This document shows, piece by piece, positions 14,375 through 41,371 of a stretch of DNA of 47,961 bases. Position numbers and translations under genes: made by a program. The stretch comes from Cercozoa sp. M6MM (taxonomy: Eukaryota > Protista > Endomyxa: Ascetosporea): assembly GCA_040357565.1 (NCBI GenBank), contig JBDODJ010000081.1. The stretch is one strand, 5' to 3'. The notes under the pieces are model-generated. The model saw nothing but the letters and a program-made list of their open reading frames with translations, was not told where the DNA came from and ran no database searches. The stretch's first letter is position 1. Every line of letters starts with the position of its first letter.

Positions 14375-16229
14375 CATATATATATATAAATATATATACA
14401 TATATATTCAAGTACATACCCAAAGAGACGCACATGAGCACAACGGACAGCAGCAGCTTAAACCACGGGGTCAGCGGGTTGCCTCCTCGCTAATGCAACA
14501 GACATCCTTCAGTCAGTGCGAACTGACTCTTTCGATGAGGAATGTGTACCAGTTTGTAGGCCGTCTCGATGATCTCAAAATCCTTGCGCAGCTCGTACAG
14601 CTGCTGCTCCACGCCGCGGAAGTGCTTCACACGTCGCCGACGCACGCGCCACGACTGGTTGGCCTGCCCAGGTCACACCAGTTCGTCACCCCAGTCACCG
14701 GGACCAACTTGATCCACGCGCAAGTCTCTCTACCGTTTTGTCCTCACTCTCCTCACGCTGCACGAGCGACTCGCACTCCTGACGCACCTCGCGCGCCTTC
14801 TCGCCTGCGCCAGGCAACAAAAAGAATGCGTTTTCAGACTAGAGGTGTCTCATTGCATCGTCACAGCTTTTCTGATATATGCTTGTCGAGTTTGGTCATC
14901 ATCTGATTTAACAACGACAAAGCACGAGGCGGCTCAAAAAAGCGATCAAAATTTCTCAGACCTCATGTCATGGGTCAATTTTTGTCAAGCATATACGCTT
15001 GAACTTAGCACACGGTGCAGAAAACAGCCCACAAACCTCATGTGTGCACGTTGTACCAAGTTTTTGACGCATGGTTTCATACTGGCGCAGAGTGATGGGC
15101 GAGGGTCGGTTCTTCCAGGCGAAAAAGAGATCCACGGGCAGTGCGAACAGTCCGATGCCTGACAGATGAGTCTCCCAGTCGAAAAAGGCAAGCATACAAC
15201 TCAAAGAGCTTAGCGTACCAGCAAACAAAGCGAAGAGAAACCAGCCGAGGAAGGAGAGGAGTGCCATAGCGAACTGACCCGACACAAACGTACTGTTGAT
15301 ATCGAAATGACACCGTCTCTATGTGATGTGTTGTACCACAGGCAGAGTGACACGGAACTCGAGTTTCAGATCAGCAGACTTTTGCTTGGCCGCCATTGCC
15401 ACAAGGTCCAGCGACACTGAGGACGAATTGCCCACGTGCACGGTGTTGGAGTCTGCACCCATCATACGCATGGCACGATCACTGATATGACAGGACTTGC
15501 ATTTTCAAAAAGGGTACAGCTCACGGAACGTGCAGTAACCGGCAGCTGCGTATCGCTCTGAAAACACACAGAGTTTAGGCACACAGATCTGCTAAAGGTA
15601 TGCGCAAGTACCAGGAAAGGGTAGGTGAAGGCAAAGATGGCCACAAAGACAATGAGCGACACGATGGCGTACTTGAAGCCATCGCAGATCTGCTGACTCT
15701 TGCTGCCCTACAGTGTGTGTGTCCTCTCTCTCTCGCTCCCTTTTGCACTGGAATAATTAGACAGAAGAAAGACGTACTTGCTCGCCCATGTATGCCTCGT
15801 AGTACCAGAAGGCGAACGGGATCACAAAGGCCAGGAACAGCGCCGACAGCACGAACACGATCTGCCACAGTAGCCCAATGTTGAGCGACCCAATGTCGGC
15901 GTAGCCTGTCGCATTCGCCGCATCGTACGGCAGAATCATCACCTGTACAGATCAACCACCAGTCAGCACACTGGTCTCCCTTTGTAGGCAACAGCACACC
16001 TGTCCAAACGCGAGGGCAAAGCCGAGAATTGTGACGACTTTCGGCAGCCACGCCTCTGTCCTGTCATCTGGATGTGCGTACTTCACGAACACGACAAAGC
16101 ACAGACCTACGGTACTCTGCGTATTAAGGGCATACAATTCACATCTGTGTAGTCCTTGATACCAACGAGAACACAGGAAAGAACGACGCCTGATATTATC
16201 ATGAACACATCGGCTCCGGAGAGACCCAT
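13517..16229 (-). CDS. LMBR1-domain multi-pass membrane protein
   Basis: KYAHPDDRTEAWLPKVVTILG, ILPYDAAN, VIPFAFWYYE, GIGLFALPVDLF, IYPMLPNATYMNAFLAN and VQFCARAF match the LMBR1-like family pattern; many TM segments. Confidence 0.85.
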
Positions 16230-16532: not shown

Positions 16533-18281
16533 ATGGAGGACCAGACCACAGGCGCAGAAGACCAGGCTGGTGTCGTATTTCTCGACAGTGCATCTTCCAC
16601 GAGGGTCTTAGATGAGGCCTTGACTTCGATGGCTCCTTTCAACAAGGTACTCGAGTAAAGACTCTTTTGCTACCTGGTATACATTGGATCTGGTTTGGCA
16701 GGAGTACTACGCCAACAGCGGCGGCTCTTACCCATTCGCACGTGTCTCTGCCGATGCGGTATGACCTGTTGAGGCGAAGGAGATGCTCTAAGGTGGCAAT
16801 TGCTGTGTGCTGGCAGATTGAGGAGGCACGCCGAGTGATCGCCGAGAGTGTGGGAGTGCATGAGGCCGAGCACGTGGTGTTTGGCGCCAGTGGCACTGAG
16901 TCCAATAACCAGGTGCTGTTCGGACTGTCGGCACGGGCCTTTCTGCGGCGAGGCAGTCGCCCTCGGCAGCAGTGCCTGGTGACGCAGCCGTCGGAACACG
17001 CGTCGGTGCTGCGTCCGCTGCAGCAGTGCGCGCAGTTGTTCGGTCAGCGCGTGCAGCTGCTGGACGTCGACGCCGACGGTCTCGTGCAGCCCTCGCAGCT
17101 GCGTGCTCTGCTCGAGAGCAATGCCGCTGCCGACGCCGACACTGTCGTTGTCTCTGTCATGCAGGCCAACAACCGGTGTGTTTCGCTCTTCTTACTGTTC
17201 CTTAAGCCTCTCTCCCTGTGGATACACACCCTGCATTCCGTGCTGTAGCAATGGCAGCGTGCAGCCAGTGCGTGAACTCCTGGCCATCTGTCGTGAGTTC
17301 GGGTAGGCTTTTACCTCCTTTGCTGCTCTAAATTTAGCCCTTCCGGTTAGTGTTCCCTTCCACACGGACGCTTGCCAGTCGTACGGCAAGATGGACCTGG
17401 ACGCCTCGTGTGCCGACTACATCACACTCAACTCGCACAAGATTGTACTCTGGATATTGTATCCTACCCTCTGTGTGGATACGAAGGGTGTGTGTATGTA
17501 GCATGGACCGAAAGGAGCCAGTGCACTGGTGTGCACAACGTCGGAGGCGCGGCAGCGACTGCAGGAAGCACCTGCACTCATGGCAGGCTGCGCGCAAGAG
17601 GGCGGTCTGCGTGCCGGCACCCACAACACTGCTGCGTACCTCTGACACATTTCGCTGTATATATCCCTTACCATTTATCTTATGTATACATATATCTATA
17701 TATATATATATATATATATATGTATACCTTGTATACCTCACTATACAGAATCGCCGGCTTTGCGGCGGCAGTGCGTGCGCTGGTGTTGGACAAGGAGCGC
17801 AACGCCGCCTTCCGCCGGCACTCGCGGCAGCTGCGCGACCTGCTGTGGCAGCGTCTGCAGCAGCTCTGCGGACAGAACGTGCGACTGGTGGGACCGCCTT
17901 GCGATGGTCCGCGTCTGTGTAGCCACCTGTGCGTCACCTTCCCCAATGCGTGTCTCACTCAACTGCGTGCCTTCCTGGGTACACTGCAGTCCTACTCAGT
18001 CTGTGAAACTCGGTTTGTGAACACTCCCAGTCTGCCTTGCTTCAATATGTGCTGGTGACACAGGTGACAAGAACATCTGCCAGTCCGCGGGTGCCACATG
18101 CAACAAGGGCAGCACCGACGGCGCCATCTTGCGTCTTACCATCGGTATACTGTCCTCCCGCAGTGTACATAGTGCACACAACAAAGGAAGCTACTTGTTG
18201 TTCTTGAAAGGTGCCTTTACGGAGGAGACCGACGTCACCGAGTGCATCGATGCACTGCGCGAGTTCTTCGCGACCAACTGA
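16533..18281 (+). CDS. Group-I NifS/IscS-like PLP enzyme (cysteine desulfurase or selenocysteine lyase), non-NFS1 type
   Basis: FLDSASST, SGTESNN, EHASV, VSVMQANN, FHTDACQSYGK, NSHKIHGPKG (PLP lysine), QEGGLRAGTHN and SAGATC (catalytic Cys). Confidence 0.85.
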
Positions 18282-24374: not shown

Positions 24375-24659
24375 ACTGAAGTAGTTTATCCCAATAAACA
24401 AAACCGAGCACACGCGTGGGCACAACCAAGTTCGTGATCGCCGTCCTGAGCAACTTCACCGTGACTCGAATTTTCTGGCTCTCGGAGAAAACGCCAAAAA
24501 CGGCATCGTTACGTCCTGTGGGACTGTGGCACCGTGTGCTGCGTTTGTTTTTAGGTAGTAGCCTTTGTGGCGGTCCTATTTGCGCACGTGGTGACTCGTA
24601 GCCACCCAGATTATTCCCGTATTTGGAAATGCCATTTGTTTTCAGCGCCAACTCAGATA

Positions 24660-25070
24660 ATGTCGCGAGGCAAGCAACGTGATATCGACCGTGCGCGCGC
24701 TCAGGCATCATTCCTCTGAGTCAAGCAGCCTTGTATGTGCTGATGTATGTGTTGTGTAGGCGCGCTCCAAGAAGGCTGCCGGCAAGTCGGCCGCAGCGAA
24801 AGCCGGCCGCAGCACGCAGCAACAGGCCTTGTCGTAAACCTCCTGTGTTCTCTGGAAACAGGTTGTTGCACGTGTGCTGGTGCTTTCTGTGTTGGCAGGG
24901 ATGCCGACATCATGCGACAGAAGCAGGAGCGCGCCAACGCTCGCCGCCAGCAGGCCAGCGCCAGTGGCTCCGCCGGTGGCAGAGCCTCGCTCAACCAGAG
25001 CAAGGCGCCCTCCAAGAACAAGGCCAACCTGTCCGCCAAGGAGCTCCGCAAGCTCGCGCACCGCAAATGA
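24660..25070 (+). CDS. SERF: Small EDRK-rich factor (SERF/4F5 family), 96 aa, 3 exons
   Basis: MSRGKQRDIDRARAQARSKK...DADIMRQKQERA; introns 24705-24759 (GC-AG) and 24834-24898; spliced length 291 nt. Confidence 0.85.
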
Positions 25071-25225
25071 TCGACTGAGCCTCGCCTGGCGGGGCACTGG
25101 CTGGACGGCAACTGTTTTTTGTTTAACTGTTTTAGTATTTACTGTACTAAACCACACTCGACTCGCCTCATCAGATAGGATAGCACAGGCACGGCAGGTC
25201 GCGTCGGTTCAGTTTCGTTTGGTTG

Positions 25226-25307
25226 TGGTCGGTCAGCGAAAGAAAATCGGCACAAGGACAGCTCAGGGCAATGAGTTTGTGTCCCGCGCGTCACACAAAA
25301 CCAACCA
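25226..25307 (-). promoter_or_regulatory. SECIS element (type II, GUGA core) in the 3' UTR of selenoprotein S
   Basis: Minus strand: helix I UGGUUGGUU/GACCGACCA; quartet GUGAC (25294-25290) opposite CGAU (25249-25246); helix II GCGCGGGACA/UGUCCUUGUGC; unpaired AAA (25278-25276); apical mini-helix CUCA-UUGCCC-UGAG. Confidence 0.88.
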
Positions 25308-25466
25308 GCTCTGTTCGAAAAGTTCGTGTGTCTGTGGGATGGGTGGGTTTCGACTTTTCGTTTCAGTCGAGTTTTCTGCCGCACCAGACTGTCTCGCAGT
25401 CTGTGCGTGGCGTGGCACCGGCAGCTGGCTCTCGACACGTACGAGCTAAAGCTGCGAAAACGGTGC

Positions 25467-26143
25467 CTAACGTCGTCAGCCGCCGCCTCGGTTCATGTGA
25501 CTGTATCTGTGCAAATTCACAAGACCACGTCTCGATTTTATCATCCAAGTTGATAATTCCAGCTGAAAAATTCCAGTTGATAAATATCAGCCTCAGTTCA
25601 TTTACCTGTCGCGCACATTCGGCATACGACGAACATCGTCGCTGTTGGGATTGGAGCGGCGTGTTGGTCTGTAGCCTTCCGACCTAAGTGGGAAAGCACA
25701 ACAACAACTCAACACCTCAGATCGATTGTAATAAAGCTACAGTACGGGTCCTCGCCGAGTGACCAGAGAGTTGAGGCAGAGATCTTGTCCTGCCGTTTCT
25801 TGGTCCTCTTTGGACGCTTCTTTGGCTCTGGCTTAGGCTTTGGCTGTTCAACGACCCGACGTTGGCGAAGCTTGGGCGTTGGTGACTCGCTCCTCCGCGC
25901 GGAAGCGAGCTTCGCGGCCAGTCTGTCCACTGCCGCCTGTCTCTGCTCGGTGTCATCGCTGCGCGTTGCTTTCGTCGTGCGCTTTGACGTCCTTAGCTTT
26001 GAAAACAGCAGAAACAGCGCCACAAAGAAAAACACGAGATGCCATCCGTGGCTCTTCAGCAGCTCGGTAATGCCTGTTGAAATGACAGAACATCATAATA
26101 CACGGCTTCGGGTGAGGAAAAAAGCACCTCCATCAGGAAACAT
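25467..26143 (-). CDS. SELENOS: Selenoprotein S, 153 aa, Sec (UGA 25478-25476) at residue 151
   Basis: Exons 26143-26128, 26073-25746, 25683-25606 and 25506-25467 (462 nt). LLKSHGWHLVFFFVALFLLFSKL resembles the SelS GW-containing TM region; then a basic coiled region, YRPTRR and the terminal GGG-U-RR*; SECIS downstream. Confidence 0.85.
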
Positions 26144-26548
26144 GGGGAGCCGACTTTGCTGTAGTTGCACTTAGGTGCGCACAATAAGCCGCACGCTTGC
26201 CCTAAGATTGGCTTCGGCTTTTGTTTAAAAAAAAAGTGCCTCTGCATAGACTGTACTGTATATTTCCGGAGTTCTACTGTGCGCTGACGTGTGCCATACA
26301 CACATAAATGCTATTCGCGGTGCTAAGTAGACGCGCGGGTGGCCTGCGCATTCTCCGATCAAATTTGGGCCGGTGTGCGGCAGTGCAAGGTGACAACGAC
26401 TGGGGTGTGTTGTTCTACGATACGGCCGCCCGAGATGTAGGACATCTTTTCATGATTTCTGCCTGTGTTAAAAACCCCTGTCACACAGGTAGTTGCGGCA
26501 GTGACGGACTTGTGGGATTGGCCGAGCAAGCAGCGGCGATTTGAAATT

Positions 26549-29500
26549 ATGGCACTGTACAAATCGCGGTACAAGGACCTGATCTTTAAGGACGAGGCTT
26601 TCGAGAAACTGGAGCCGAACACTTTCATTCATTTGGCCGCCTTGGCTGCTCGGCTGGGCGAACACAAGAATCACATCAAAGGTATCTACCCCCCCCCCCC
26701 TCCATCCATCTCAGCTATTTACCTTGTGTTGGATGCTTGGGTGCGCACCATTTGTGTTGCTGCAGCCTTGAAACGCCTCGAATCGGCACTAACGGCGCAA
26801 CCGGAGGCTCAACTCGACGTGCATTGGCTACGAACGCTTGCTCTATTTTACCGCAACAAGTCGAACGGAGTGTATGTTTGTGTGTTGTGTGTGTGTGTGT
26901 ATGTATATATGTACGTATGTGTGATAGCGATCCGAAAAACAAGCAGCAGCTGGCGTCGGTCAAGAGAGGTTTGCCGATGTTGTGGCGACTCCTCGAAAGT
27001 GGCAGACTGTACCACGCGACCCAGGGACGGCAGCGCGTGTGTCGGGAGGCGTCGGAGACCGTGTACCAGTTGATCAGGATCGAAAAACGCGGTCGTATCG
27101 CGTCTGATGTGGTGGATGACCTGCTGACTGCTGCCGTATATTTACCCCTTCAGCCTCACATGTTCACCCTCACATGTTACCCCCCCCCCCCCCCACTTGT
27201 CCAGAACAGGCACCGAGAGCTCGCGCAGAGTGGTGACACGCTCTTGTACCTGCACACGCTGCTTGCAATATGGAAGTCGCTTTCGTATGTCTCACTTGAG
27301 TTTCTCACTTCGGTCTGCTGACCCTAGATACCCCTGCTGACTGTCTTCCTGTCATGCCCTGTTGTGTGCTTTGTTCAGCTACCTGGTGGACACGCGTCGA
27401 CTCTGCGTGAGCGCAGAAACGAAGCAGGCGATCAATCAGGAGGTGGCATCACTCAGGCGAGGGACCACTCAGGGCGAGGACTACTTGGCTTCCTGTGGCA
27501 TGGTTGTGTGTGAGTAGAAGAGAGAGCTGATGATGTTGCTGGACACTGTCAAGAAAGACACCCCCGATAGTGTCGGCGAGCACAAGGAACTTTTTGACGA
27601 CATCGCACGCGAGATTTCCCAAGTGTTGGACAGTGTACCGACCGAACTCGACCCGCTGCGACGTGTACCCGCTCTTTTTGACTAGTCTCTCTGAGTGTGT
27701 GTGTGTGTGTGACATCCCTCTTGTGTGTATGTGTGTGCAGTTGCTTGAAACGAAGAAGGGCTTGATAACGCGAGCGTTGTGCGAGCAGGAGCGACAGGAG
27801 CTGCGTCGGTCGTGTGCTGCTGACGTGGCCTCACTACCGAGCAAGGTCGACGAAGAACTGGTGCCTCCCGACACGCTCGCCGTTCTCGCCTTCATCGCAC
27901 TCCGACTCGAGCTGCCCGACATTACTGTCAAAGGTACTACAGTACACACACACATATATATATATATATACATCTATTTAGGTATATGTATATGTATTAT
28001 AGATATTAAATATACCTGTGTCTCACTGGTGTCCTACCCTCGTGCATGCAGCCATCGAGGCACTGGCGTCGTCACCGACGTCGCTGAACATGACGACGAA
28101 AGCGCTTGAAGTGTTCGTGTTCGAGTTCCAAAGTTTAAGTCAGTCTCGGTGCCTCCTTACATTTGCCCTGTCCTATGTCGCGCTGCTTCTATATCTCTAT
28201 CTGTCTCACTTTCTATCCGTTTGTCTATCCACCGATCTCCCTCTCTACTTATCTCTCACCTCTATCTACGTATCTCTCTATCTATCTCTCTATCTACCTA
28301 TATCTCTATCAATCTGTCTATGTCTGTATGTGTCTAGCTGTTTCTCTGTCTGACTGTTTCTATATCTATATCCCTAGCTATTCTTTCTGCCTTGCACCTG
28401 CTATCTATTGAGTTGAGTCTTTGATTTCTTCAGAAAGAAGCCAATCGACAGTGCACTCGTGCAGCAGATGGTGCCGCTGCTGTGGCAGTGTCTCGAGAAT
28501 CGAAATCTGCACTTCCTGCACGTATTTGCTCTTGCACATTTTCCTCTGCCTGTTTGCACTTTGCTTGTGCTGTTTAGAATGAGGCGAAAGAGTTGGAGCG
28601 TATCTTCCGAGTCACGCAGGACCTGCTCAAAATGACGAAGCCTCCGCACTGTCACGCCGGCAGTCGCACCGACGCTTCCCTTCGCTTTGCTTGCGGCAAG
28701 CTGGTAACCTACCTTCCGTCCTGGTACCCCCTGGTTCCTTTTGCTTACTCTGTTTTTGTGTCTCCAGCAAACGCATCTGCGTTTGCTGCAAAAGGCCCCT
28801 AACGACATCGATCGTGCGGTCCGGTTGTGCATCGTTGGCGCGCTGTTGGATCGCATCAGGTAGCCTCTCGTGTGTTGTTCCCCTCATACTCACCTTACGC
28901 CTGCGTGGCCTTACTGAAACGTAACTTGAGTGTGCAGATACGTGGCCCGAACATTCAACAAGAAGGTGAATCAAGAGACATTGCAAACGATTCTCCGAAC
29001 GGTACACTTCTCTTTCGATCCAGTGCCAAGTCGTTGTGCAAGGCCATCTTTCTTGCAGAAAGAAGATGCAGCGCCCTTTTTCAAATCCTCCTGGCTGCGG
29101 GAGAACGACGTGCCTGTGCGTCCTTGTCGAGGCCTTGTCGATCGCGCACGCGTCGCACTTGCTTCCTTCGCTAAGTTCACCGACTCGGCGTCAGAGTCGA
29201 AGGAAGAAACGGTGCAGGGACCATTGCAGGAGGAGGAGTCCTTGCAGGAGGAGGAGTCCTTGCAGGAGGAGGAGTCCTTGCAGGAAGAGTCGTTGCAGGA
29301 AGGGTCGTTGCAGGAAGGCCCTTTGCAGGAAGAGTCGTTGCAGGAAGGGTCGTTGCAGGAAGGCCCTTTGCAGGAAGAGTCGTTGCAGGAAGACCCTTTG
29401 CAGGAAGAGTCGTTGCAGGAAGAGTCGTTGCAGGAAGACCCTTTGCAGGAAGAGCCGTTGCAGGAGACGGTACAGGAGGTATTGCAGGAGCCGCTGCAGG

Positions 29501-30043: not shown

Positions 30044-31593
30044 CTAAAGAAAGGGCAATGCACGCAGGCACTGCCCTGAAGAAGCTGCGGCGACAAAATC
30101 GCAAAAGTCGCTCAGCTCAGCGTTCAGTTCGCATTCAAGCTGAGTGCCTTGATCAGTTCCAGCGCCGCAGTTCGTACCATGTTGACTTGAGAAGGAGTGA
30201 GACTTGCCCGTGTCACAGTCGATAGAACTGTCACTGACAGGAAGTGCTGCCTGTGAGTTCGCTCGCCAGACACCATCGGACTCGCCAAAGAGAACAGCTT
30301 CGAGTGAGTCGATGCTTTCGCTGGAGGAGACCTGTGCCTCCTGTCTCGAGTCAAGCAGACTCTGTTCGACACGCCGCGATAGCAGCAGTTTGGCCACCAC
30401 GCGTTCATCTCGTCCGACGGAGTGTCGAAGCAGCGAGTGTTTCGACCAGTCGGACGCTGTCGTTCGTCTGCCTGGTTCGAGGCACAGGCAGCGACTCACA
30501 AAGTCAGCGACGCAGCAGCGTTCGACGCGAGGGACACTGCGCGCATTCCTGGCTATCACACTTCGAATCTCAGCAGTTGCATCGGCCACAGTGTTGTTGT
30601 CGAACTGCACCTTGTTCCTACAGCATCCAGTATCGTCACAGTACTACAACAAAGCGTTCCCTAGGTAGGTTGCCCACACCAGTCAGGAAGCAAGGCTCTA
30701 GAAGGCCAGTTGTCGTCGGAAGGACTGCCCAGAGTGTCGAAAATCGAGGCAAGCACCTGCAACTCGCCTGGACCGGCGAACAGGTCGCTCCCGCAGACAC
30801 AGGCGGCAACACACGCCGCGGCGGCCCAGAGGTCCGACTGTTGGGAGGCCTGATCATGCTCATGCCCCGATGAACTACTGTAGCATAAGAATCAGTGAGG
30901 GAACTCGCAAAGAAAGAGACCTCTCCTCCGAAGAACAATTCAGGCGCTCGCGTATGACACGTGCTGACGTAGAACGCCGGCACTCACGCCGAGAGTCTTT
31001 GCAGAAAGGCGCAGTCGGCCCCGTCTTTGTTGCTTTGCTCTGCCTCAGGGTAGGTCTGCAGGCGGACAGCACCGTAGTCGCCAAGACACATGCTTCCGTT
31101 GCTCCGGATGAACACGTTGGTGTCACAAACGTCGCCGTGCACCAGTCCACACGCGTGCAGTCGCATCAGCGAGCGTGCCAGCGTCCGCGCGGCCACACGG
31201 GTCACACTCATTCGCGTGCGCCAGTGCACTCGCGTCTGTCGCATCTGTCGCAGCAAATCGCGCAAATTGCACTCGCAACGCTCGGTTCGTAGGATTAGCG
31301 TCGATCCTTCCGACCGACAGACCGGCTGCCTCAACTTTAAAATCGGACCTTGACCCTCGTCGAGTTCCGACTCATCCGTGCCTTCAAGCACGCGCAAGGC
31401 GAGCACCTCCCGCTCGGCTGACCTTCGCACTCGGATATCCGCGCAACTCGTGTGCTTTTCAACCGTGCACTCGCTTACGGCAAACACCTGCGACTGAGCG
31501 CCTGCCCAACGTCAATTCTGTTTTGGAAATCCACAGCTGATCGATTTTTATACCTTCACCGATCGCTCGTCCGACTGCACTAACGCCGTTCAT
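30044..31593 (-). CDS. Divergent CDK-like (CDK20/CAK-like) protein kinase or pseudokinase, with in-frame TGA at 30986-30984
   Basis: IGEGAQSQV (Gly loop after intron removal), SAEREVLAL, LVHGDVCDTN, DYG, TRAPELFFG, SDLWAAAAC, IFDTLGSPSDDNWP...LPDWNKVQF, CLCLEPGRRTTA; 3' end approximate. Confidence 0.75.
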
Positions 31594-31756: not shown

Positions 31757-34498
31757 ATGCAGGCGGCCGTGCGCGCTGGCGCTGCTCGGCGCAGTGCTCG
31801 TGCATTTTCGGCACTGAAGCCAGAAGAGCAGTTCGTCAAATCGCAATACGGCGGTCTCCACGATGAAGACCGCATTTTCACGAATGTGTACCGTCAGGGC
31901 GATTGGGGCATCGAGGGCGCCTTGCAGCGGGTAAATTTTGTGTTTTTCAGATTGCATTTGCAAGGCCGTTTGCTTTGTGTTGGCAATCCTGCACTGCTTT
32001 GTTCTCGTTGTTGACACGTTGAAAGTGTTGCCTTGTCTGTTGCTTTGCTTTCTTCTGTGCAAGCAGCACGAGTGGATGACGTGTTGACTTGCTTGACTCG
32101 TGTATCTATGTGTATGCGTATATGTGTTTGTCAGGGTGACTGGCACCGCACGAAGGACATGCTGCATATGGGCCGCCAGTGGATCGTCGACGAGATCAAA
32201 AAGTCCGGTCTGCGCGGTCGCGGTGGCGCCGGTTTCCCGTCAGGCATGAAGTGGAGCTTCATGCCGCCTGACGATCGCCGCGATGACAGGCCGCACTATC
32301 TCGTCGTCAACGCTGACGAGTCCGAGCCGGGCACGTGCAAGGACCGCGAGATCATCCGATCCGACCCGTACACTTTGTCCTTTACCCCCCCCTGTTAATC
32401 ACTGTGATCCTATTTGTCCACAGGCACAAGCTGATCGAAGGCTGCGTGGTCGCTGGCACTGCCATCGGCGCTCGCAAGGCCTACATTTACATTCGGTAGT
32501 GCCGTCTTTTGCTCCCCTGTGTACCTGTGTAGACAGTGTATGTGTGTATTAATGTATGTGCACAGTGGCGAGTTCTGGGAGGAGGCCAACATCCTGCAGG
32601 AGGCGATCGACCAGGCATACAAGAAGGGCTTCCTCGGCGAGAACGCCTGCGGCGCCGGTCTCGGTCGCTTCGACGTCTACGTGCACCGCGGTGCCGGTGC
32701 CTACATCTGTGGCGAGGAGTCGGCGCTCATCCAGTCCATCGAGGGCAAGCAGGTAGCTGCCTCACACATTATGTTTTTGCATTTATCTATTTTATTATAT
32801 ATAAATAAATAAATATATATATATATATTATATGTGGTATATCTGTATGTTGACAGGGCAAGCCGCGTCTGAAGCCGCCATTCCCGGCCGGCGTCGGTCT
32901 CTACGGCTGCCCGACCATTGTGACCAATGTCGAAACCGTCGCTGTGTCACCTACGATCCTGCGTCGCGGCGGTGACTGGTACTGCTCTGCACGTGCTGAA
33001 CCCCGTTGCTTCCTTTTCCCCCCCCCCCCCCCTGTAGGTTTGCCTCGTTCGGCAGACCGAACAACGCGGGCACGAAGCTGTTCTGTATCTCGGGTCACAT
33101 CAACAACCCGATCACGGTGGAGGAAGAGGTGTGTCTGTCTTTCATTGTACTAGCATGCTACTGCTAGCATGCAGGCCGTGTGTGTCTACACTGTTCCTGT
33201 GTCTCCACTGCCCCTTGTGTGTGTGAGGACAGATGAGCATCCCACTGCGCGAGCTCATCGAGAAGCACTGTAAGGACGTGATCGGCGGCTGGAACAACCT
33301 GCTGGCCATCATTCCGGGCGGCTCCTCGGTGCCGCTGCTGCCCAAGACCGAGTGCGACGAGGCACTGTACCTCTCTCTGTGTTCTGACCCTACCCCTGCC
33401 TCTTGACCCTGCCTCTTGACCCTGCCTCTTGACCCTGCCTCTTAACTCCCCTACCTTGACCCCCCCCCCCTTCCCCAGTATGGACTTTGACGACCTGGTG
33501 GCACGTGGCTCGGGTCTCGGTACAGCCGCCGTGATCGTGATGAACAAGCAGACCGACCCGATCGCCGCGATTCGCCGCTTGTCGCACTTCTACAAGGTAG
33601 TCACATAGTTTAACCCCCCCCCCTTGCCCGGCTGTTATACCCCCCCCCCCCCCTCCGTGTACAGCACGAGTCGTGCGGACAGTGCACGCCGTGTCGCGAG
33701 GGCACGCCGTGGCTCGAGGACATGATGAAGCGCTTCGAACTTGGCAAGGCCGATCAGGCCGAGATTGAGGCTCTCTGGGGTACGCTAGATTCCTATCCCC
33801 TCCCTTGCATGTGTGTTGGTTACCACCTGCCTGTTTGTGTGTGTGAACAGACGTGTCCAAGCAGATCGAGGGTCACACGATCTGTGCTCTCGGTGCCGCC
33901 GCCGCGTGGCCGGTGCAGGGCCTGATCCGACACTTCCGTCCCGTGATGGAGGAGCGCGTGGCTGCTGGCTACGGGTGCATACTTTCATTTTTGTGCCTAC
34001 AAACCAGCATTCAGAGATCTATATATATATATATATATATATATAGATATTATAATATATATATAGATATTATGTATGCACACTATGTATCTAACAATAT
34101 ATGTGTATTTTACAACACATACACATATGTTTGCACAGCACGCCGATCGATTTGGAGAGACGGTTCGAGCAGCTCATCCACGAGCAGAAGGTCAGCACCG
34201 TCGAGCCGGCCGAAGTCGCTCTCAATGCGTACCACTCTCTTCTATCTCTGTCGTACTTGGCAAGCACAGTACCCCTGTGTGTCTGTGTATGTGTATGTGT
34301 GTACGCGTGTGCAGCTCGCCTGCCCCGGAGACGCCGGCCATGAGCGACTCTTTGCGGCAACGAATCATGCAGGTGCAGTAACAGAGATAATCGACCCCGA
34401 CGTCAGAGCTCGCTTCTTTTGTTTTGTTTCGTTGTTTTCTTTTTATTTCTCCGCAGAACACCAGCGAACACCCAGCCAACTGTCCCGCCGACGCCTAA
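31757..34498 (+). CDS. NDUFV1: NADH dehydrogenase (complex I) 51-kDa flavoprotein subunit
   Basis: Presequence-like N-terminus; [75 protein letters not shown]. The stop is at 34498, or at 34381 if the last intron is retained. Confidence 0.97.
33384..33478 (+). repeat. Intronic C-rich 13-bp tandem repeat (CTTGACCCTGCCT) x3 plus degenerate copies
   Basis: Directly visible in an NDUFV1 intron. Confidence 0.9.
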
Positions 34499-39543: not shown

Positions 39544-41371
39544 ATGTTGCTTCAAATCAAAAAGAACAATGGACTTGAGGCCAGCTGGTGGTTGTGGTTG
39601 GCATGTGGCTGAGGTTTGAGAGTGAGTGCGAGTCTCTCTGCGTCCCACGTTGCCCTGCATTACACTTTGATGCCGATGCGGTATGGCCTGTCGTACTCAA
39701 AAGTAAGGCTGTGTCCGCAGGTCCAGGACGATGCAGTGCTGCTCGCAAGTCAGCGACGAGGTCGCACTCTGCGCCTACGTCGACGACTCGACTGGCGAAT
39801 TGTGTAAGTTTATCGACAGAGTGTATAATCACTCTGACCCTGTTCTGCTTGATTTACTTGCTGTCGATGGTGCAGCGAACGAGATGCGCGTGGAGGCGCG
39901 AGTGAGCGAAGACATCCAGGGCTACTTCTCGTTTGGCTTTGGACAAGGCATGGTCAATGCTGACGCAGTGATCTCCAATGTGCACTTTGACGGCACCGTA
40001 CCGTACCGTTTGCCCTCTTTTCTTCTTCAAACTCCTTGATATTACCATAGCAAGACTGTAATATTCCTACAGTGAAAGCACTGAGATTGAGATCACGGGC
40101 AAGTCCGGCGCAGCGATCACGCCTCGAGAGCCATCGCACGCTCTATTTGAGCGCACCGACTACTCGTACTGCTTTCTTTTTTCTTTGGTTGCATAAATGC
40201 ATGGGGAAGCCGTTGTCTGTATGTGAGCAGTGTCGAGGAAGGTGAGGTGCGCATGCAGTACACGCGTCCGCTGAGGGTGCCGGATGACCATCCTGCCTTT
40301 GGCGACGACACGCGTTACTCGGTGGAAGTCATGCCTGCCGAGACGCCGCTGGCTACGCTGCCTGTCGTGATGGCGCAGCACCCAACCAGTCGCTTCGGCA
40401 GCGGCAGTTTCACGCGACACACGCGCCGCTTCGTGCTCGAGCTGCCGCTGCACCGAGCCTCGGCGTGCGATTTGGGCACTACGCCGATTTCACCTCCTGC
40501 TGTACCCTCTCTATCCTCTCCTCTTCGCGTGAAGTGCGGTAGAAATGTCGTTATTGTACAGAGTACGAGCTGGCCTGGTCTGCTGACTGCACATGTGACG
40601 CTCATGCTGCTGGCCTGGCTGCGTACACTCACTCACCGAGTCTGCCAGTGTTTCGACTGTATTGTATGTGTGTATGTGTGTGCGCGCAGTGTTCGCTCCA
40701 CTGGCAGTTTGGTGCGGTGCACGCAAGCGCCTGGCCTCGCAAGAGAAGGCAGTACAGCGCTACTTTGAGCTGCATCGTGTGTTCGCCACACTGACTGCGA
40801 TTGCCACCTTGGGTACTGTGTATATATATATATATATATATCTATATACTGCATGTTTAAATATTTGTGTGTGCACAGCTGGCTTCGCGTGCATCGTGTC
40901 GCATGTGCAAGGTGCACACTTCTCGCACGGACACGGCATCGCCGGACTGATCGTGGTGCTGCTCACGGTGTGCCAGGTGCTGCTGGGCGCGCTGCGGCCG
41001 TCGCCGCAGAGCGAGTCGCGTACCAAGTGGCGACTGGCGCACTTGTGCACCGGCACCACTGTGCTCACCGTGGCCTACGGTGCTGTTGTGTTCGGCGTGC
41101 TCTACCTCATTTCGTACCTTCGTTTCTACTACCACTATGGTCCTCTGAGCACCGGCACTTATAACTTAAACTGTTTGGTAGTATCTACGGCCAAAGCGAC
41201 ACCACCACGAGCTTCTTTGTTCTGACCGGCGCCTCCCTGTTGCTGCTGCTGCTGGGTACGACGATCGACCACATGCGCAACGGCAAGAAGCAAGACAACG
41301 CTGACGACAGCGCCGAGAGTCGCCTGCTGGCCGATGATACGAGAGACCACATCTTCATCAACAGCGCATGA
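39544..41371 (+). CDS. DOMON + cytochrome b561 domain protein (CYBDOM/ferric-chelate reductase-like); start uncertain
   Basis: DOMON-like GYFSFGFGQGMVNADAVI and MQYTRPL; b561 His ligands in AHVTLMLLAW, YFELHRVF, HGHGIAGLIV and WRLAHLCTG; LGALRP motif. Confidence 0.85.

What the first reader, a model, noticed from the sequence alone, without database searches (positions are those of the whole stretch)
25226..26143. Hidden selenoprotein S: in-frame UGA three codons from the end plus a GUGA-type SECIS
Seen: four GT-AG-joined exons give MFPDGGITELLKSHGWHLVFFFVALFLLFSKL...EGYRPTRRSNPNSDDVRRMPNVRDRYSHMNRGGG-TGA-CGA-CGT-TAG. About 180 nt downstream lies a hairpin with every SECIS hallmark: helix I, UGAC/CGAU quartet, 10-bp helix II, AAA and an apical mini-stem. 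Established: SelS/SelK proteins are single-TM ER proteins with Sec among the last residues of a Gly-rich tail; GUGA is a rarer variant of the AUGA core. Inference: this organism recodes UGA as Sec, and automated annotation would truncate the gene.
Basis: partly seen in the sequence, partly recalled or inferred. Interest (0 to 1): 0.78.

Follow-up and report, generated by a model that had tools for sequence, protein, structure and literature searches.

The report
Hidden selenoprotein S in marine amoeba
A four-exon gene of a marine amoeba encodes a selenoprotein S-family membrane protein that the public annotation cuts off at a UGA codon; that codon is likely read as selenocysteine with the help of an RNA hairpin 180 bases downstream, an ordinary arrangement for this family, here in a lineage with no published selenoprotein data that I could find.

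Summary
Confirmed, and ordinary in kind. The four minus-strand exons give 153 codons with TGA at codon 151, then Arg-Arg-TAG. The NCBI protein from this contig (MES1910474.1, Cercozoa sp. M6MM, now Lemnamoeba sinaloensis) has the same splicing but stops at that TGA. It passes the Pfam SelS cut-off (30.7 vs 29.8 bits). Of 18 relatives, 15 also end in Gly-Gly, and the one with DNA reads Gly5-TGA-Gly-TAG. A type II SECIS lies 182 nt downstream. It fits Rfam SECIS_1 end to end but below threshold (17.9 vs 35 bits); 114 of 20,000 shuffles of the 3' region give such a match. GUGA cores are common in algae and sponge (PMC3473315). The Sec machinery and transcript could not be tested (no genome held; no RNA run listed). 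Extras: no Cys in the protein, so no human-type Se-S loop, and a borderline hairpin right after the stop. The scan noted a similar SelS gene on other DNA (e1-9530236). New member of a known family.

The parts
26128..26143 (-). Exon 1 (ATG; residues 1-5 and first base of Gly6)
   Evidence: matches NCBI protein P0001
26074..26127 (-). Intron 1, 54 nt, GT-AG
   Evidence: implied by P0001
25746..26073 (-). Exon 2: hydrophobic helix, cytosolic helix, Pro/Lys-rich linker; carries the Pfam SelS match
   Evidence: 31.4 bits, cut-off 29.8; helix 6-67
25994..26050 (-). Predicted single transmembrane segment, about residues 14-32
   Evidence: Kyte-Doolittle 19-mer mean 1.62-1.67, modest; pLDDT 89-93 over residues 11-30; coordinates
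25892..25924 (-). Degenerate p97-binding VIM-like motif, residues 56-66 (R-x5-AS-x2-R against RX5AAX2R); weak lead
   Evidence: strict motif not met; loose motif in 1 of 7 proteins examined; motif from PMC5725882
25684..25745 (-). Intron 2, 62 nt, GT-AG
   Evidence: a profile of 15 relatives aligns across it to GYRPTRR
25606..25683 (-). Exon 3 with the GYRPTRR motif shared with relatives
25507..25605 (-). Intron 3, 99 nt, GT-AG; retention would end the protein at a TAA overlapping the donor; an in-frame alternative acceptor at 25501 keeps the UGA in frame
   Evidence: P0001 uses the 25507 acceptor
25467..25506 (-). Exon 4 coding part ending GGG-TGA-Arg-Arg-TAG
25476..25478 (-). In-frame TGA, codon 151, inferred selenocysteine
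   Evidence: same position in L001
25467..25469 (-). TAG, inferred true stop
25415..25466 (-). Stem-loop starting at the first base after the TAG (-23.1 kcal/mol); possible counterpart of the mammalian SELENOS proximal stem-loop; borderline significance
   Evidence: PMC6844570, PMC3628699
25350..25403 (-). Two small hairpins between the proximal stem-loop and the SECIS (about 25403-25385 and 25370-25350); role unknown
   Evidence: boundaries chosen by eye
25226..25307 (-). Type II (form 2) SECIS candidate: G-UGAC / CGAU core, AAA 11 nt above the core, apical mini-stem

Best explanation
This gene encodes a selenoprotein S-family protein whose in-frame UGA at codon 151 is likely read as selenocysteine, directed by the SECIS-like hairpin 182 nt downstream, giving a predicted 153-residue single-pass membrane protein ending GGG-Sec-Arg-Arg. 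Shown: the reading frame, the family match, the UGA three codons from a TAG, the same UGA-then-stop layout in a relative, and a hairpin with SECIS geometry. Inferred from established eukaryotic Sec biology: SBP2 binds the kink-turn core and eEFSec delivers Sec-tRNA; failed recoding would give the 150-residue form that the database lists. Inferred from mammalian SELENOS: ER location, p97 recruitment through the cytosolic helix, and redox chemistry at the Sec on a disordered tail. The protein has no cysteine, so any redox partner of the Sec would have to be another molecule.
For: Pfam PF06936 above cut-off, no other family under E 0.07. The NCBI model has the same three introns; the authors state transcript reads trained their annotation (PMC11069148 passages). 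An independent profile of 15 relatives matches residues 8-127 (27.3 bits, E 2e-10 for one target). 15 of 18 relatives examined end in Gly-Gly and none of those 15 has Cys in the last 10 residues; they include the Aureococcus cluster. L001 reads Gly5-TGA-GGC-TAG. The human tail ends GGUG (PMC6844570), and algal SELENOS is almost always Sec-containing (PMC7539508). SECIS core and AAA fall on the matching Rfam model positions over the full model, 1-64 of 64; positional null 114 of 20,000. The TGA-to-core distance is 182 nt, with no AATAAA or ATTAAA between the TAG and the neighbouring gene. The model has a long helix then a low-confidence tail, as described for human VIMP. The rhizarian Bigelowiella has 23 selenoprotein genes.
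Against: No Sec machinery could be shown in this organism, and no tRNA gene lies in the window. The Pfam score is only 0.9 bit over cut-off, and pairwise BLASTP to relatives is not significant (E 0.20; E 4.2 or worse). The SECIS is below Rfam's threshold, has C where the consensus has K, and is not unusually stable. No relative's 3'UTR was available, so there is no covariation test: L001 ends 37 nt after its TAG. DNA behind the UGA was seen for only 1 relative. TGA is a normal terminator in this genome. The tail has about 19 extra residues relative to the relatives. The VIM is degenerate and absent from 6 of 6 relatives checked.
Confidence: 0.88

Rival explanations
1. The organism has lost selenocysteine use. 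UGA is now the true stop, the protein ends at Gly150, and the hairpin is a decaying relic or a chance fold.
For: Machinery untested. SECIS below the Rfam threshold. TGA ends two other genes in the window. SECIS-like patterns occur about 1.3 times per resampled window.
Against: The hairpin keeps an unbroken 9-bp helix I, the core, and the model's 11-nt core-to-AAA spacing. A match this good in this 3' region arises in 114, and at the observed strength 2, of 20,000 shuffles. A second stop still follows within three codons, as in the relative L001.
Confidence: 0.08
2. The last intron is mispredicted or mostly retained, so the protein ends before the Gly-Gly-Gly-UGA tail and makes no Sec form.
For: No RNA reads were laid (one search listed none). 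Retention gives a TAA stop at the donor, and four other acceptors give different tails.
Against: The NCBI model uses this intron. Only the 25507 and 25501 acceptors restore the Gly-Gly end seen in 15 of 18 relatives. The intron is 36% GC against about 55% for the surrounding 2 kb.
Confidence: 0.02
3. UGA is a general sense codon (Trp or Cys) in this organism, or is read through without selenium, so the tail carries an ordinary residue.
For: Nothing specific; a stem-loop just after the stop could in principle aid non-specific read-through.
Against: In 689 codons of 11 Pfam-matched stretches there are 10 TGG, 20 TGY and 0 TGA, although these came from stop-free frames and so are biased. The class-V aminotransferase and the convergent neighbour end on TGA. 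A SECIS would not be needed.
Confidence: 0.02

Closest known systems
Selenoprotein S (SELENOS / VIMP; Pfam PF06936) of mammals
   Same: Short N-terminus, one hydrophobic helix, cytosolic helix then disordered tail, YRPxRR / RPGRR-type motif before a Gly run, UGA at the C-terminus, type II SECIS in the 3'UTR, stem-loop at the very start of the 3'UTR.
   Different: 153 vs 189 residues. Sec third from last rather than penultimate. No cysteine at all, so no Cys174-Sec188-type bond. GUGA rather than AUGA core. About 19 extra residues between the YRPxRR motif and the Gly run compared with the algal relatives.
SelS-like proteins of Aureococcus anophagefferens and related unnamed marine records (P0002, P0005-P0031, L001)
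   Same: N-terminal GW motif, Pro/Lys linker, GY-x-P-x-RR motif, Gly-run end, TGA followed by a near TAG in L001, no tail cysteine.
   Different: 22-35% identity in the alignment. L001 is intronless and ends Sec-Gly-stop. No significant hairpin in the short stretch after its stop (z 0.33).
Selenoprotein K (SELENOK; Pfam SelK_SelG, recalled)
   Same: Sec third from the end, no resolving cysteine, and an RRM-x-x-V/I stretch before the Gly-Gly end (all SelK features recalled, not retrieved).
   Different: No SelK Pfam match for the whole protein or the 39-residue tail at E up to 10; the N-terminal half matches SelS.

Membership tests
Selenoprotein S (PF06936) | Profile match above the curated cut-off | tested here: met
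   30.7 and 31.4 bits vs 29.8; narrow margin
Selenoprotein S (PF06936) | Single N-terminal transmembrane helix after a short N-terminus | tested here: met
   One hydrophobic stretch at residues 10-32, mean hydropathy 1.6-1.7; confident helix in the model. Prediction only.
Selenoprotein S (PF06936) | UGA (Sec) or Cys within the last few residues, after a Gly-rich, basic tail (definition recalled; the defining paper was not held) | tested here: met
   TGA at codon 151 of 153 after GGG; net charge +21 after residue 32; same in L001
Selenoprotein S (PF06936) | Resolving cysteine upstream of Sec (human Cys174); known from mammals, not shown to be family-wide | tested here: not met
   0 Cys in the protein; 5 of 6 relatives have none and 1 has a single Cys in the membrane segment
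Selenoprotein S (PF06936) | p97-binding VIM (RX5AAX2R) | tested here: inconclusive
   Strict motif absent; loose form at 56-66; absent in 6 of 6 relatives
Selenoprotein S (PF06936) | ER location and role in ERAD | not testable with these tools
   Inferred from mammalian SELENOS
Eukaryotic type II SECIS (Rfam RF00031) | Helix I, UGAN / GA kink-turn core, helix II, unpaired AA, apical mini-helix, in the 3'UTR | tested here: met
   the 3' core is CGAU against the KGAW consensus
Eukaryotic type II SECIS (Rfam RF00031) | Covariance-model score at the gathering threshold | tested here: not met
   17.9 vs 35 bits, E 0.28; PMC3753652 says non-metazoan elements are the hardest to predict
Eukaryotic type II SECIS (Rfam RF00031) | Conservation and covariation across orthologous 3'UTRs | not testable with these tools
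   No relative's 3'UTR obtained
Eukaryotic selenoprotein gene | Sec machinery (tRNA-Sec, eEFSec, SBP2, SepSecS, PSTK, SPS2) in the genome | not testable with these tools
   No genome held; nothing on it in the text or readable supplements of the two genome papers
Selenoprotein K | Pfam SelK_SelG match | tested here: not met
   No hit at E up to 10

The most novel reading that the evidence does not exclude
This is the first sign of selenocysteine use in Apofilosa/Endomyxa, and it marks a protist branch of selenoprotein S that has no resolving cysteine and a SelK-like tail, so its Sec works through intermolecular diselenide or selenylsulfide bonds. The stem-loop straight after the stop codon is an ancient or convergent feature of C-terminal Sec recoding shared with mammalian SELENOS.
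Probability: 0.3. Interest if true: 0.42.

Novelty: new member of a known kind. Interest (0 to 1): 0.22.

Why it matters
It corrects a database entry (a 150-residue 'hypothetical protein' is likely a 153-residue selenoprotein S). It also predicts a complete, unannotated selenoproteome in a cultured rhizarian amoeba with a near-complete genome. That gives a free-living-side reference for asking whether the related ascetosporean and phytomyxean parasites kept selenocysteine. The cysteine-free tail is a natural test of whether the Cys-Sec loop of human SelS is needed for the family's function. None of this is a new mechanism.

Tried and rejected
Whole genome: none held, so no machinery search. 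Sequencing runs: no RNA holder listed. Contigs of 3 of the 5 listed runs were laid. X1 is identical over 24600-26458 but may be the source sample and is not counted. X2 and X3 give short, depth 2-2.4 pieces that do not reach the SECIS; X2 covers the TGA unchanged, 2 bases from a contig end. The 4 listed differences are 3 intronic and 1 synonymous, too few to weigh. ARAGORN found no tRNA in the window. Rfam on 1601 nt found no SECIS. ESM Atlas gave only unnamed bacterial clusters at 0.87-0.91 and TM under 0.5. PDB sequence searches with the protein and with alignment A4 found no SelS chain. Locus searches: P0002 in metagenomes 0 of 593 candidates; A3 1 of 250; P0020 in viral contigs 0 of 94; P0030 in prokaryote genomes 0 of 603; A4 too divergent to search. 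The second SECIS-pattern hit at 14676 (-) has only a 6-bp helix I and lies among exons of an LMBR1-like gene; I treated it as chance and did not follow it. I considered the class-V aminotransferase 8 kb away as selenocysteine lyase and rejected it as support: none of 27 PDB hits is so named; nearly all are cysteine desulfurases. SelK membership was not supported. The post-stop hairpin looked strong with tuned ends (z -4.0, 0 of 200 shuffles). A fair control gave z -3.3, with 54 of 1060 random starts reaching -3 and 34 of 1060 reaching -3.5, and a 12-nt-step scan missed it, so it is kept only as a lead. No complex prediction was run, as no p97 sequence was available from the tools.

Full report
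Observation. The minus strand of 26143-25467 holds four exons joined by GT-AG introns of 54, 62 and 99 nt. The joined frame is 462 nt: 153 codons and a TAG, with TGA at codon 151 (25478-25476) after Gly-Gly-Gly and before Arg-Arg. A search with exon 2 returned one protein among 19 candidates, the NCBI record from this same 47,961-base contig, MES1910474.1, 'hypothetical protein MHM6MM_003060 [Cercozoa sp. M6MM]'. It is 150 residues long, identical to the spliced model, and stops at the TGA. M6MM was placed in Apofilosa (Rhizaria) and has since been described as Lemnamoeba sinaloensis, a marine amoeba (passages of PMC11069148 and PMC13746701). The first paper says transcript reads trained the annotation; whether reads cover these introns I could not see.

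Family. The protein matches Pfam Selenoprotein_S at 30.7 bits (cut-off 29.8, E 3.7e-7) over residues 7-77; the next family scores E 0.074. A search of 1.84 billion representatives found one other protein at E up to 0.001, P0002, also above the SelS cut-off. From it I reached a cluster that includes an Aureococcus anophagefferens record and, with a profile, 26 proteins at E up to 10. I examined the 18 non-self hits down to E 3e-13 and left out the 7 weakest. Of the 18, 15 end in Gly-Gly with no cysteine in the last 10 residues; the other 3 diverge in the tail. The one relative with DNA, L001, reads five Gly codons, TGA, one Gly codon, TAG. A profile of 15 relatives built without this protein aligns residues 8-127, across intron 2 into GYRPTRR. 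Against this, pairwise BLASTP is not significant, four further relatives score below the Pfam cut-off (13-18 bits), and PDB searches found no SelS chain. An AlphaFold2 model (mean pLDDT 62, pTM 0.23) has one helix over residues 6-67 and a low-confidence tail, like the helical-then-disordered layout reported for human VIMP (PMC5725882 passages).

SECIS. At 25307-25226 the RNA folds into a 9-bp helix I, an internal loop, G-UGAC opposite CGAU, a 10-bp helix II with one bulge, an unpaired CAAA and a 4-bp mini-stem: a type II element, 182 nt from the UGA. On a 121-nt stretch Rfam SECIS_1 aligns over all 64 positions with core and AAA in register, at 17.9 bits against a gathering score of 35; the 1601-nt search missed it. 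The 3' core has C where PMC3753652 gives K. By my own pattern such elements are not rare: 2 sites in the window and 16 energy-passing sites in 12 resampled windows. In the 393 nt behind this stop, however, 114 of 20,000 shuffles pass the same cut-offs and 2 reach the observed strength (cut-offs recalled, last threshold post hoc). The element is thus supported by where it sits, not by its own score. GUGA is the majority core in Chlamydomonas and Ostreococcus and in 12 of 21 sponge elements (PMC3473315 passages), so it is unremarkable in a protist.

How it likely works. Shown: frame, family, UGA position, relative's layout, hairpin geometry. Inferred from established eukaryotic Sec decoding (PMC6627142 passages): SBP2 binds the core, eEFSec brings Sec-tRNA, translation ends two codons later at TAG, and failure gives the 150-residue form. 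Inferred from mammals: an ER membrane adaptor for p97 in protein degradation, with a redox-active tail. A loose VIM lies at residues 56-66, but the strict motif is absent and 6 of 6 relatives lack even the loose one. TGA otherwise acts as a stop here: two neighbouring genes end on it, and 689 codons of Pfam-matched stretches hold 10 TGG, 20 TGY and no TGA, a count biased by how the stretches were chosen.

What differs from the textbook case. Human SelS has a penultimate Sec188 proposed to bond with Cys174 (PMC3628699 abstract and passages). This protein has no cysteine, and of 6 relatives 5 have none and 1 has one in the membrane segment. Its Sec is third from last, which I recall as the SelK position, yet no SelK profile matches. 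A 52-nt stem-loop starts at the first base after the TAG (-23.1 kcal/mol). Mammalian SELENOS has a proximal stem-loop at 3'UTR bases 3-36, and 6 of 8 human C-terminal-Sec mRNAs can form one; the two papers disagree on whether it helps recoding. My fair control puts this hairpin at roughly the 3-5% level, and L001 shows none in its short flank, so it is a lead only.

What could not be tested. No genome is held and no RNA run was listed. The Sec machinery, splicing and the mRNA 3' end are therefore open; the convergent neighbour's stop lies about 155 nt beyond the SECIS. Neither genome paper contains 'seleno' in its main text or readable supplements, nor does a Rhizaria-wide preprint. Full-text searches for selenoprotein + Rhizaria + SECIS (2 papers), selenocysteine + Cercozoa (2 listings, on elongation factors by title) and selenocysteine with Plasmodiophora or Reticulomyxa (20 of 40 listings seen) showed no survey of this lineage. 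The library lacks most subscription papers, and the supplement of PMC7539508, which may list rhizarian SELENOS, could not be read. That paper reports 23 selenoprotein genes in the rhizarian Bigelowiella natans, so Sec use in Rhizaria is known. Other papers seen: PMC2761289 passages and PMC10298544 passages (not useful). The paper defining the SelS/SelK family was not held and is recalled.

Earlier scan notes. None exist for this genome or sequence. A word search showed a similar SelS gene with a GUGA SECIS and a post-stop hairpin in another eukaryote (e1-9530236) and a GUGA-core SECIS in a foraminifer-like protist (e1-7354405). Both are unchecked AI notes seen after my reading was formed.

Verdict. 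Real, and about 88% likely to be a functional selenoprotein S gene; a new member of a known family with a known recoding signal. Interest 0.22.

Noticed in passing
window about 16534-18281 (+): Multi-exon class-V PLP enzyme (Pfam Aminotran_5). Its best PDB hits for the main exon are bacterial cysteine desulfurases, ahead of the mitochondrial enzyme, and it has an acidic N-terminus with no obvious mitochondrial presequence. It may be a cytosolic NifS-like or selenocysteine-lyase-like enzyme; its origin was not tested.
   Followed up: partly
window about 24750-25070 (+): Small basic gene converging on the SelS gene and ending in TGA at 25068-25070. It resembles SERF/4F5 by recall only (no Pfam hit for the last exon). 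The two 3'UTRs share under 400 nt and may overlap.
   Followed up: partly
window 14676 (-): Second match to my SECIS pattern (GUGA core, 6-bp helix I) among exons of an LMBR1-like gene; treated as chance.
   Followed up: no
window 25563 (-): An upstream AG inside intron 3 would give an alternative tail ending Gly-TGA-TAA; no evidence that it is used.
   Followed up: no
P0004 (Aureococcus anophagefferens KAH8062445.1): A 442-residue NCBI model in which the SelS-like sequence is fused behind what looks like ribosomal protein S6 (recalled) and ends at the Gly run; probably a merged, truncated gene model.
   Followed up: no
window, other genes: Housekeeping genes by Pfam: DIM1 (about 13017), complex I 51-kDa subunit (32015-33950), a protein kinase (30987-31511), a SNARE (about 44200), sideroflexin (about 46100), DOMON / cytochrome b561 (39707-41222). 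Many AC/GT and AT simple repeats, as reported for this genome.
   Followed up: no
window about 29150-29470 (+): Tandem acidic repeat in a coding frame (EE(S/G)LQ-type units).
   Followed up: no
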